DNA from: Eledone cirrhosa
Taxonomy: Eukaryota
Assembly: GCA_964016885.1 (NCBI GenBank)
Contig: OZ024742.1
Coordinates: 224,502,001 to 224,566,000, forward strand
Length of the DNA: 64,000 nt
Direction: 5' to 3'
This document shows positions 4,099 to 7,530 of this stretch, in pieces. Made by a program: the position numbers and the translations under genes. Numbering within the stretch: position 1 is the first letter of the stretch; each line of letters starts with the position of its first letter. The notes under the pieces are model-generated. The model ran no database searches and was not told the origin of the DNA. It worked only from the letters and a program-made list of their open reading frames with translations.

Positions 4099-4965
4099 CT
4101 CGGTTCGACACAAGTTTTGTTAGTGAAATTGGATAAACTGAAACTGTTTGGAGGCCTGTTGAATGGACTGTACCTGTAATTTTAAATGCCCCCTCGCCAC
4201 ACACTTCGTCACGCTGAGTCTCCCTGAGAATTAAGTTAATTTAATAAAAAATGCATCAGTCCAGAACTGGGGTTGATTTTTCCTCAATATCTGTTTCTCA
4301 CTTCCGCTATATCACTCTCTCTTTCTCCCACTCCTTTCCGGGAAGAAATCGCTGTATGTCACTACGGTGCCCCTACAACTACATCAATGGTTAAAGGTCC
4401 ATATATTTAAAAATATAATTTACTTATTAATTATTAGTTTATTCATAAAAAACTATGATCATATTCCTTACAGATAGTTTGAACATACCACATAACCCAT
4501 GATATATATACTAGTTTACATCATATGATAAATGTTCCCTTATATAAATTCACCCACCACTATAATATGTCATTTCTATATCTATTTAGATAAATACCTC
4601 AACTTTTTCTGATGAAGAACTATCGCCCGAGAGGTGGAGACATACATTTTCGTTTCCTCCACAACTAATTAGACTTTATGGAATTGTTCTTTATGTCTCT
4701 CTCCTCTTTTTAAACCGTGAACTATATATATATATATGTATATATATAAGTATGTATACGTACATACATATATGTATACAGACGTACAGTAGTATGTATA
4801 CATATATATATATATATACATACATGCACACATATATATATGTACGTATGGATTCACCGAACATTTATTATAATGCTCGGTGTGTTTGTAAACAAACATC
4901 CCGAATTAAGCCGTACAGTGTCTAGCAACCATCGTTGCTCATTTGTTCAACACTGACAAAGGAAC

Positions 4966-5004
4966 GCTGTACTAGTTTCAAGCTTATTAGCTATCGTCAG
5001 CAAC
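4966..5004 (-). ncRNA. Minimal type I hammerhead ribozyme (inverted copy)
   Basis: GTTG CTGACGA T AGCT-aata-AGCT T GAAA CTAG TA CAGC. Confidence 0.8.
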
Positions 5005-5334
5005 TTATACCTTCCTGCCAGATGATTGAACGTATATACTTACCTTATGCATATTAACGGCTGAGTAGCCCAATTTGCATATCAAGTGAGTTAATCGGCC
5101 GGGTGCACCGAAAACGATAAACGGAAAAAATGAAACGAAATTTCATTTCTCACTATTAGTTACTTATATTTAAGTAAGAATGAGAAATGAAATTTCGTTT
5201 CATTTTTTCCGTTTATCGTTTTCGGTGCGCCCAGCCGATTAACTCACTCGATATGCAAATTAGGCTGCTCAGCCGTTAATATGCATAAGGAAAGTATATA
5301 CTTTCAGACGTTCAATCATCTGGCAGGAAGGTAT

Positions 5335-5377
5335 ACGTTGCTGACGATAGCTAATAAGCTTGAAACTAGTACAGCGT
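5335..5377 (+). ncRNA. Minimal type I hammerhead ribozyme
   Basis: ACGTTG CTGACGA T AGCT-aata-AGCT T GAAA CTAG TA|CAGCGT. Intact core, 6-bp stem I, palindromic ACTAGT stem III and GUA cleavage triplet. Confidence 0.85.
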
Positions 5378-5820
5378 TCCGTTGTCAGTGTTGAACAAAT
5401 GAGCAACGATGGTTGCTAGACACTGTACGGCTTAATTCGGGATGTTTGTTTACAAACACACCGAGCATTATAATAAATGTTCAGTGAATCCATACGTACA
5501 TATATATATGTGTGCATGTATGTATATATATATACATACTACTGTACCTATGTATACATATATGTATGTACGTGTACATACTTATATTTAAGTAACAGCC
5601 GTACTAAGAGTGAGAAATGAAATTTCGTTTCATTTTTTCCGTTTATATATATAAGGGCGGTGCCCCAGCATGGCCTCAGCCGGATGGCTGAAACAGGTAA
5701 AATATATATATATATATATATATATAGTTCACGATTGAATATATTACTTTTAGTACTAATTTTCTGAAGATGCTTCGAAACAAGTCTGTAATGTGTCAGT
5801 ATTAATTGTCTTTTAAATGA

Positions 5821-5852
5821 TAACTATAACTGAAGCATAACAGAACACACAC

Positions 5853-5939
<87 letters not shown>

Positions 5940-5969
5940 CGTGTGTGTTCTGTTATGCTTCAGTTATAG

Positions 5970-6038: not shown

Positions 6039-6414
6039 TATATCTGTATTATCTGTATATACTATATTTATCTCTCCTTCTCTCATTCTGTCTTTCTCTT
6101 TCTTTCACTGAACTCACCTTTTATTATCATCTTAGACAGGTACAACACCACCACAACAACAGTTTGAAGGTTATTTTCTCCACAATAGACATCATACTCA
6201 TTATGAGATCCTTTTCAAGGAAATGGTTTATAAGTGGACACCCTTCCTGGTGCCAAACGTTTTTGTTGCCTCTTACAAAACAGCAGGCGTTTGTACTGCA
6301 GGCTTCGTAATAGACTTATTACTCAACATGGAGTCCTATTTAAGACAATGTCTTGCACTAAAAACGTCCTTCCTGCTATCAATACGCCAGGTGAAAACGG
6401 TAGAGAGTATCTTT

Positions 6415-7320
6415 CGTTAGAGATATGGTAATAAAATGTTTAAAATATTTATATTTACCTGAAAAACCTATCATAATTTTATGTAAGAATCTTAATGTTA
6501 TACTCCAAGCAACAGCTTCATTATAAGAAAATTAATTATATTGCTAAATCCCTTCAAATTATCGATTATATTCAAACCTATTTGAAAATGATAAGCAGCG
6601 TTTTTCATTAGAAAGTGTTTAAGTGTTTATATTTAATTAGATACATCCCATCATAGTTTTATATGAGAACCTCCGTTATGATATGGTCCAAACAACAACC
6701 TCATAACGAGGAAGTTAATCATATTACTAAATCTACCCACATTATTGATTAATTTCATAATTATTTGAAAGTCATAAGCAGTGTTTGTCATTAGAAATAT
6801 GGCAACGAAAGCGTTAAAGTATTTATATTTATTTAAAAACCTTCCTTCTTAATTTTATGCGAGAATCTTTATTAATTCGGGTGCAAAACACCATCTTTAC
6901 ATTCGAAAGTTAGTTATATTTCTAAATTCCTTCATATTCTATTCTTGATTATATTCGTAATGACTTGAAAATCAAAAGCAGTATTTTGATAAGAAATACT
7001 GTAATGAAAGGGTTAAAGTGTTTATATATCCGAAACCCTTTCATAATAATTTTATGTAAGAACCTTTATGTTATGTTCCAAACACCAAGAACGTTATATT
7101 AATAAATCTCTCCAAATTCCTGATTATTTTCAAGATTATATAAATTTAAAAGCAATGTTTTTCATTTCGAATATGGTAACGAAAGGGTTAAAGGCTTTTA
7201 TATTTATTTAAAACCATTTCATCCTAATTTCATCTTAATGAGAAAGTTAGTTATAACTTAATTATTTGAAAATCATAGGCAGTGTCTTCTATTAGAAATA
7301 TGATAAAGAAAGATTCTGCG
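6415..7320. repeat. Diverged tandem array (~5 units of ~150-200 bp) related to the piggyBac-type MITE at 54501
   Basis: Recurrent TTTGAAAATCATAAGCAGTGTTTTTCATTAGAAATATGGTAACGAAAGGGTTAAA, the reverse complement of the MITE terminus at 54497-54545. Confidence 0.65.
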
Positions 7321-7530
7321 TTTTTGTAATTAGCCCTTCGTTGATTACTGTTAAAAATTTAATCCAATTAAAAATTCAAAATGGGAGCAAGCCCCTGACC
7401 TTTGTTTAGCTCGCTAAGATGGCAGCATAAAGTAAGTCATTTAAAGAGAACATATGATTAAAAGTTGGTTGAGAAAATTTGTCATTTTTATAGTTAGACC
7501 TGCTATTGCATAATAAGCATAATATGTGTG

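What the first reader, a model, noticed from the sequence alone, without database searches (positions are those of the whole stretch)
4748..5646. ~420-nt monomer with wrap-around tail plus a full inverted copy: retrozyme-like, possibly from a circular or tandem RNA template
The direct unit 5163-5580 is followed by a repeat of its own start (5581-5646), which is a circular permutation. It is preceded by a full inverted copy. The unit has no coding capacity and one intact hammerhead. Inference: reverse transcription ran around a ~420-430-nt circular or multimeric RNA, the size range of metazoan retrozymes, and then folded back.
Basis: partly seen in the sequence, partly recalled or inferred. Interest (0 to 1): 0.8.

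Follow-up and report, generated by a model that had tools for sequence, protein, structure and literature searches.

The report
Hammerhead retrozyme riding Penelope-like retrotransposons
This is one copy of a 430-base non-coding repeat that carries a hammerhead-ribozyme motif found 10,046 times in this animal genome; its copies end like Penelope-type jumping genes, so it is likely copied by their enzyme, probably from a circular RNA, which would make it a good test case for how animal retrozymes spread.

Summary
Observation confirmed, with corrections. The unit is 430 bp, not ~420. The 'wrap-around' is the Penelope-like element (PLE) 'tail' between two fixed 3' ends. The inverted arm has its own hammerhead.

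The exact 31-nt core occurs 10,046 times. In 62 insertions chosen only by that core, 77 of 95 arms end at one of two sites, 45 of 96 run into another unit, 29 of 62 are head-to-head, and none is the terminal repeat of a coding PLE.

Two distant ORF-less sister families (441 and 465 bp) share this anatomy and the predicted fold; 19 of 20 changed base pairs still pair.

Verdict: a non-LTR retrozyme, likely moved in trans by a Neptune-type PLE. The template was continuous across the cleavage site; a circle is likely (0.6) and uncleaved tandem RNA is the main rival. Fold-back is not supported here, because the arms differ by a linked subfamily block.

Against: no RNA evidence, no Rfam match, a U.U mismatch at the base of stem II, the longest array is a later DNA duplication, and the partner PLE is unresolved.

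The parts
4723..4748 (.). (TA)n tract at the outer (3') end of the inverted arm; target microsatellite
   Evidence: sequence; 61 of 93 canonical family ends are followed by (TA)3 within 2 nt
4741..5160 (-). Inverted arm: unit positions 386-429 + 1-373, ending at the tail-less start site; carries a sub-lineage block absent from the direct arm
   Evidence: (L001)
4964..5006 (-). Second type I hammerhead motif, intact core, one mismatch at the outer end of stem I
5160..5177 (.). 18-nt hairpin palindrome where the two arms meet head to head; both arms skip the 3' strand of the closing helix next to it
   Evidence: role in joining the two cDNAs is inferred
5175..5216 (+). Partial upstream unit (388-429) of the direct arm
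5217..5646 (+). One complete 430-bp unit, 36.7% GC, no ORF, predicted multi-hairpin fold
5253..5260 (+). Octamer motif (ATGCAAAT) inside a hairpin, kept in the sister families; possible internal promoter element (untested)
5335..5377 (+). Type I hammerhead motif: stem I 5335-5340/5372-5377, core 5341-5347, 4-bp stem II behind a U.U mismatch, GAAA 5362-5365, 2-bp palindromic stem III, predicted cut after 5371
   Evidence: intact core in 72 of 83 aligned copies
5425..5432 (+). 5' strand of an 8-bp long-range helix (partner 5597-5604) kept by compensatory changes in three families
5492..5575 (+). TA-rich internal hairpin, part of the unit (also in family 3, absent in family 2)
5579..5594 (+). Small hairpin holding the first preferred 3' end (unit 370-373), inferred reverse-transcription start A
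5591..5646 (+). 56-nt tail between the two preferred 3' ends; its end (unit 429) is inferred start B
   Evidence: PMC11167929
5647..5726 (.). Right flank: (TA)3, a 48-nt unrelated fragment, then a (TA)n tract

Best explanation
This is a dispersed, protein-less 430-nt hammerhead retroelement (non-LTR retrozyme) whose copies carry Penelope-type ends, likely copied into TA-rich DNA by a Neptune-type PLE protein and likely from a circular RNA. Steps: (1) Inferred: loci with two or more units in tandem are transcribed. (2) Inferred: two hammerheads pair through the palindromic stem III and cut out a unit-length RNA. The predicted long stem I arm holds its two ends together, and they are ligated. 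(3) Shown: copies end at two fixed sites 56 nt apart, mostly followed by (TA)n; inferred: these are the protein's internal start sites. (4) Shown: copying runs through the cleavage site and into the next unit, stopping at scattered points. (5) Shown: about half of insertions have a second arm head to head that starts at the same two sites; inferred: both target strands were primed and the two cDNA ends joined, here at a hairpin palindrome. This locus has one hammerhead per strand, so it is likely a dead-end copy, not a source.
For: Abundance: 10,046 exact cores, control 0; 4 of 60 evenly spaced 10-kb stretches hold a copy, about 20,000 (5,400-51,000) insertions. Ends: 94 of 109 arms (my tally of the printed list) and 77 of 95 arms in the core-selected sample end at unit 365-378 or 419-429. 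Structure of insertions: head-to-head in 25 of 52 and 29 of 62; 45 of 96 arms cross a unit junction. Of 100 passes covering position 170, 10 stop at 150-170 and none at the cut itself (two at 156). Target sites: 9-nt duplications (L025; L320) and a 10-nt deletion (L081). No ORF link. RNA-level selection: z -8.8 linear, -9.5 circular, -5.4 without the TA hairpin. Two sister families at 62-70% identity show the same order of hairpins; 61 of 63 anchored cells pair, and 19 of 20 changed cells still pair (null mean 8.0). Units within one insertion share alleles: family 3, 18 of 18 clusters; this family 17-19% diagnostic mismatch against 30% between loci. PLEs with RT, CxC..C linker and C-terminal GIY-YIG motifs and ORFs of 637-830 aa are in the genome. 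PLE protein nicks and extends both strands and starts at two internal sites (PMC11167929).
Against: No RNA evidence of expression, cleavage or circles. Rfam gives no hammerhead match. Position 10.1-11.1 is U.U, where PMC4209133 reports a highly conserved G-C. The hammerhead stretch alone folds no better than shuffles (z -0.35), and the older copy L188 does not show stem I in its minimum-energy fold. RNAalifold on an unguided alignment recovered only 24 pairs and missed stem I. The helices were anchored on motifs I chose, and only three comparisons enter. The longest array (5 cores, L322) is a later DNA duplication (units 2 and 4 identical, 0 of 422); L033 also has two identical units. Several insertions, this one included, mix subfamily alleles, which one rolling circle cannot give. 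In the anole PLE, uncleaved RNA was the main substrate and no reads ended at the cut (PMC11167929). The partner PLE was not identified, and Pfam and PDB did not recognise the PLE ORFs.
Confidence: 0.6

Rival explanations
1. Same element and same enzyme, but the template is an uncleaved linear transcript of tandem source loci; the hammerhead is weak or incidental, and arrays are regenerated by DNA-level duplication.
For: Uncleaved RNA was the dominant PLE substrate in vitro (PMC11167929). Only 1 of 9 Xenopus retrozyme dimers cleaved in vitro (10.64898/2026.07.22.740005). U.U at the base of stem II. DNA duplication made the longest array. By my count of the first 100 cores listed, 9 of 81 loci hold two or more cores in tandem and could be such sources.
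Against: Core and stems I-III are kept with compensatory changes across families 30-38% apart. The young family 3 has 3-unit arrays whose units differ by 2-9 substitutions each, so they are not recent duplications. Inference: 5' truncation would shorten arrays every round unless a unit-length template can give more than one unit.
Confidence: 0.25
2. The templates are linear hammerhead-cut monomers, and the reverse transcriptase jumps from the 5' end of one molecule to the 3' end of another.
For: Mixed subfamily alleles inside some insertions (L001, L003, L028). A slight excess of 5' ends at 156-170 (10 of 100).
Against: No pile-up at the cut (one 5' end at 150-160 among 95 arms). The junction across the cut is seamless in most of the 83 aligned copies. 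Family 3 insertions are allele-pure in 18 of 18 clusters. The excess near 156-170 is expected from how selected loci.
Confidence: 0.08
3. It is only the truncated pseudo-LTR of a coding PLE that my sampling missed.
For: Tail, partial tandem, 5' inversion and TA targeting are all standard PLE features (PMC8557442). Xenopus retrozymes are homologous to pLTRs (10.64898/2026.07.22.740005). I saw under 2% of the copies and searched only five PLE families by their own sequence.
Against: Where an arm outruns one unit it enters another unit (52 of 109; 45 of 96). No 5' flank is shared at the junction between loci. PLE families A, A', B, C and H have different termini. PLE ORFs near copies are nested insertions.
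Confidence: 0.05
4. The inverted copy arose by fold-back of the nascent cDNA onto itself.
For: A hairpin palindrome sits at the junction, and in most loci the two arms share alleles.
Against: At this locus the arms differ by a linked sub-lineage block. Inverted arms end at the same two fixed sites as direct arms, often the other one of the two.
Confidence: 0.05

Closest known systems
Animal non-LTR retrozymes (Cervera & de la Pena 2020, PMC7229834; e.g. mussel 350-390 bp, coral 220-245 bp, axolotl 330-350 bp)
   Same: Short, low-GC, ORF-less unit with a type I hammerhead, tandem copies, strong self-pairing, co-occurrence with PLEs
   Different: Unit 430 bp (above their 170-400 nt, inside the 51-972 bp range of the 2026 preprint); mostly dispersed 0.5-2 unit insertions with two fixed 3' ends and head-to-head arms, which the sections I read do not describe; circular RNA and cleavage untested here
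Vertebrate non-LTR retrozymes as pLTR derivatives (Li, Clavereau, Pollet 2026, bioRxiv 10.64898/2026.07.22.740005)
   Same: Non-autonomous, PLE-associated; some arrays here did grow by local DNA duplication
   Different: No parent pLTR found among five PLE families; units were evidently retrotransposed on their own; three families share a whole-unit fold
Penelope-like elements, Neptune type, and their pLTR/tail (PMC8557442, PMC11167929, PMC4209133)
   Same: Two 3' ends with a tail between, partial tandems, inverted 5' arm, (TA)n targets, hammerhead upstream of the 3' end
   Different: No RT/endonuclease ORF; hammerhead has a 6-bp stem I with extension and a 4-bp stem II, not the minimal PLE form (4-5 bp and 7-8 bp)
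Non-autonomous Chlamys PLEs such as MRC1 (passage in PMC8557442)
   Same: ORF-less, head-to-tail multi-copy insertions by PLE machinery
   Different: Most Chlamys lack canonical hammerheads and share 3' sequence with their autonomous partner; no such shared sequence was found here
Newt satellite 2 (cited in PMC2220036; the original paper was not held)
   Same: Hammerhead repeat with a possible internal promoter; an octamer in it is recalled, not read
   Different: No block shared with this genome's U1 upstream regions

Membership tests
non-LTR retrozyme | type I hammerhead with intact core, stems I and II, short palindromic stem III | tested here: met
   caveats: U.U at 10.1-11.1, no Rfam match
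non-LTR retrozyme | short unit in head-to-tail tandem copies, each with a hammerhead | tested here: met
   430-bp period; 9 of 81 loci among the first 100 listed cores hold 2-5 tandem cores (my count); most loci are shorter
non-LTR retrozyme | no coding capacity, GC under 45% | tested here: met
   49 codons at most; 36.7% GC
non-LTR retrozyme | highly self-paired unit | tested here: met
   67% paired, z -9.5 as a circle, -5.4 without the TA hairpin; prediction only
non-LTR retrozyme | co-occurs with autonomous PLEs | tested here: met
non-LTR retrozyme | self-cleaves | not testable with these tools
   needs in vitro transcription of monomer and dimer
non-LTR retrozyme | accumulates as circular RNA | not testable with these tools
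   needs raw RNA reads, RNase R or northern blot
truncated pLTR of a coding PLE | tail, partial tandem, inverted 5' arm, microsatellite target | tested here: met
truncated pLTR of a coding PLE | collinear with an RT + GIY-YIG ORF in some copies | tested here: not met
   0 of 52 query-selected loci and 0 of 62 core-selected insertions; under 2% of copies seen
truncated pLTR of a coding PLE | minimal PLE-type hammerhead (long stem II, short stem I, bulged base) | tested here: not met
   against PMC4209133
snRNA-promoter satellite (newt satellite 2 type) | promoter blocks shared with snRNA genes | tested here: inconclusive
   no match to 10 U1 loci beyond 13-18 nt chance hits; octamer present; other snRNAs not tested

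The most novel reading that the evidence does not exclude
An old, independent lineage of viroid-like circular RNAs, three families 62-70% alike, has kept one whole-circle fold that mimics a PLE start site. It has repeatedly recruited whichever Neptune-type PLE was active and has no parent terminal repeat left. Its ends and head-to-head arms are a genomic record of two-strand, rolling reverse transcription. The young family 3 and the young PLE family C (1.6% and 1.4% pairwise divergence) would be a ready pair for rebuilding retrozyme mobilisation in vitro.
Probability: 0.35. Interest if true: 0.75.

Novelty: new member of a known kind. Interest (0 to 1): 0.52.

Why it matters
How animal retrozymes move is stated as open in the 2020 paper (PLEs a 'strong candidate') and the 2026 preprint (mechanism 'remains to be elucidated'). 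Here an ORF-less hammerhead unit shows the full PLE integration signature, with fixed start sites mapped on a fold conserved across three families. PLEs with long intact ORFs sit in the same genome. That turns the question into a direct assay: which protein, which start sites, circle or uncleaved RNA. The family also covers about 0.2% of the sampled DNA, and head-to-head copies would give long double-stranded RNA if transcribed through. The class itself is known, which limits the score.

Tried and rejected
Rfam: microRNA and other hairpin matches only, all under gathering score, no hammerhead.

Tail-only genome search: empty, uninformative because common words are skipped.

Sequencing runs: no RNA holder listed. 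Contigs of four runs show presence only; the summed depth was not used as copy number.

snRNA-type promoter: nothing shared with U1 upstream regions.

Parent PLE: families A, B and C, H and A' have other termini. Family D was seen only locally, and fragments in L014, L027, L140 and L320 were not searched genome-wide.

Apparent chimeras with coding PLEs (L002, L016, L224, L299, L305, L320) resolve as nested insertions or stay ambiguous; L320 has a 9-bp target duplication.

Partner by adjacency: A-type ends flanked 10 of 52 query-selected loci against 13 of 997 control TA tracts. In the core-selected sample both A-type (6 of 62 vs 23 of 997) and C (8 of 62 vs 41 of 997) were enriched. The reciprocal test was flat (1 of 29 independent A' loci). 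So no single partner is named.

'Inverted arms always come from a second RNA': rejected, since most share alleles with the direct arm.

Pentamer as proof of rolling copying: rejected.

Pfam and PDB did not recognise the PLE ORFs.

The first family-3 monomer had 22 wrong leading bases and was replaced.

Duplicate loci were dropped before counts: 11 of 63 for the 52-locus set, 19 ids; arms touching a locus edge were dropped.

Earlier-findings look-ups returned nothing.

Full report
Observation. The region holds an inverted arm (4741-5160) and a direct arm (5175-5646) that match at about 92%. They meet at an 18-nt hairpin palindrome (5160-5177). The end of the direct arm repeats its start. Tandem copies elsewhere give a period of 429-431 bp, so the direct arm is one unit plus 42 nt. 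Each arm has a type I hammerhead motif with the predicted cut after GUA at 5371 on the + strand. Rfam did not match it. The unit is 36.7% GC and has no ORF. The host is an animal with a 3.0-Gb genome; that it looks like an octopus is my recollection of repeat content, not a test.

The family. The 31-nt core occurs exactly 10,046 times, control 0. Four of 60 evenly spaced 10-kb stretches hold a copy, about 20,000 insertions (5,400-51,000). I studied two samples: 67 loci found mostly by similarity to this copy, and 62 insertions in 60 stretches taken in order along contig C1 for the exact core alone. Arms end at two sites, unit 365-378 or 419-429: 94 of 109 and 77 of 95. Of 93 such ends, 61 are followed at once by (TA)3. 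5' ends are scattered, with none at the cut among 100 passes (two at 156). Arms cross into another unit in 52 of 109 and 45 of 96 cases. Head-to-head arms occur in 25 of 52 and 29 of 62 insertions. Where an empty site could be compared there was a 9-nt duplication (L025, L320) or a 10-nt deletion (L081).

Not a truncated pLTR. These features are the PLE signature: partial tandems, an inverted 5' copy and a tail (PMC8557442, passages), the tail lying between two internal start sites (PMC11167929, main text). None did. No 5' flank is shared at the junction between loci. Eleven of the 60 core-selected stretches hold PLE protein pieces; the three nearest cases (L299, L305, L320) are nested or separated by TA. 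PLE families A, A', B, C and H have different termini. I saw under 2% of the copies, so a rare parent is not excluded.

Sister families. A sensitive search found two distant relatives: family 2 (441 bp, 3,328 candidates) and family 3 (465 bp, 874 candidates), 62-70% identical to this one and to each other. Both lack an ORF link in the 30 and 23 loci examined and show two 3' ends, partial tandems and head-to-head arms. Folded as circles, all give the same order of hairpins, including a long arm round the hammerhead that would hold the cut ends together and a small hairpin at the first 3' end. In stems I-III and one long-range helix, 61 of 63 cells pair and 19 of 20 changed cells still pair, 17 by changes on both sides (null mean 8.0). 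Limits: I anchored these helices by motif; unguided RNAalifold found 24 pairs, 8 with double changes, and missed stem I; the hammerhead stretch alone has z -0.35. Stem II starts with U.U here, A.A in family 2 and the canonical G-C in family 3 (PMC4209133, parts 1-2 of 4).

The inverted arm. Most insertions share alleles across tandem units and across arms: 49 of 285 and 54 of 289 diagnostic mismatches against 30% between loci, and 18 of 18 concordant clusters in family 3. This locus is an exception. Its inverted arm has three substitutions and an 8-bp deletion that match a sub-lineage (18 other matches) and are absent from the direct arm, so it is not a copy of that arm. Since inverted arms begin at the same two sites as direct arms, I infer priming on both target strands, as the anole PLE protein does in vitro, with the cDNA ends joined at the palindrome. 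Later gene conversion could also explain the block.

Circle or tandem RNA. Shown: the template was continuous across the cleavage site. Not shown: that it was circular. For a circle: conserved ribozyme and end-joining arm, allele-pure arrays, family-3 trimers whose units have diverged independently, and circles shown for mussel, coral and axolotl retrozymes (PMC7229834, passages and sections 14 and 17). Against: the longest array is a DNA duplication, some insertions are mixed, uncleaved RNA sufficed for the anole PLE, and 8 of 9 Xenopus dimers did not cleave (10.64898/2026.07.22.740005, parts 1-3 of 5). I put the circle at 0.6.

Partner. [quoted passage not shown] I call them Neptune-type from that order (PMC8557442, and my own knowledge); Pfam and PDB gave no match. 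Pairwise divergence pairs this family (6.7%) with A (6.6%) and family 3 (1.6%) with B and C (1.8%, 1.4%). Copies lie beside A-type and C ends more often than control TA tracts, but the reciprocal test was flat. The partner is unresolved. An octamer lies in this family, in family 2, in the L259 copy of family 3 and downstream of the endonuclease in 19 of 29 A and 9 of 12 C loci, against 0.08 per kb background. A promoter role is untested, and U1 upstream regions share nothing with the unit.

Known or new. It meets every retrozyme criterion testable from DNA; cleavage and circles are untested. It works like a non-autonomous PLE but fails the pLTR test. Searches of the held library (listings only unless named above) showed no paper on this family or on fixed start sites in retrozyme insertions. 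Passages of an octopus repeat annotation had no mention of ribozymes (PMC13282606). Subscription papers, Repbase and all supplements were not seen; the supplements of the 2020 paper and the preprint may list such families. Verdict: new member of a known kind, interest 0.52.

Noticed in passing
L206:1150-1970, L153:7434-7839 (loci L190-L219): Family 2: 441-bp ORF-less hammerhead unit with up to three octamer-like repeats, same insertion anatomy; pieces in 5 of 60 evenly spaced stretches.
   Followed up: yes
L259, L267 (loci L244-L268): Family 3: 465-bp unit, youngest (1.6% pairwise), canonical G-C at the base of stem II, arrays of over three units.
   Followed up: yes
L220-L225, L164-L175: Young high-copy PLE family C (150 hits at 99-100% in the endonuclease, ORFs of 713-741 aa) whose terminal repeat has CAGAAGA in place of the hammerhead core; 3 of 6 long-ORF loci have a family-1 copy within about 500 bp upstream.
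   Followed up: partly
L269-L298: A', a sister of PLE family A seen mostly as short terminal pieces with its own hammerhead; one copy (L272) continues into an ORF start.
   Followed up: partly
L106:4330-4440, L107:2332-2443: An unidentified repeat end abuts family-1 copies tail to tail in 2 of the 4 copies of the evenly spaced sample and in L044.
   Followed up: partly
L126:3015, L148:2826-2897, L153:1630, L155:6753, L163:8016: Further, different type I hammerhead-like motifs in the evenly spaced sample.
   Followed up: no
L094-L103 upstream of U1: U1 genes lie in long tandem arrays (about 2.67-kb period) and share short upstream blocks near -260 and -55.
   Followed up: no
window 4716-4747 / 5702-5733 and 5822-5965: TA tracts flanked by inverted repeats: the two outer flanks of the insertion mirror each other, and a second mirror surrounds the tract at 5853-5935.
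   Followed up: no
window 6384-7332: Degenerate ~183-200 bp repeats, too diverged for Tandem Repeats Finder.
   Followed up: partly
window 25542-25651: A near-perfect 110-nt inverted repeat of non-microsatellite sequence (alignment).
   Followed up: no
L320:673-3796: A family-1 dimer inserted in a PLE ORF with a 9-bp duplication; part of the composite is present again in inverted orientation at 97%.
   Followed up: partly
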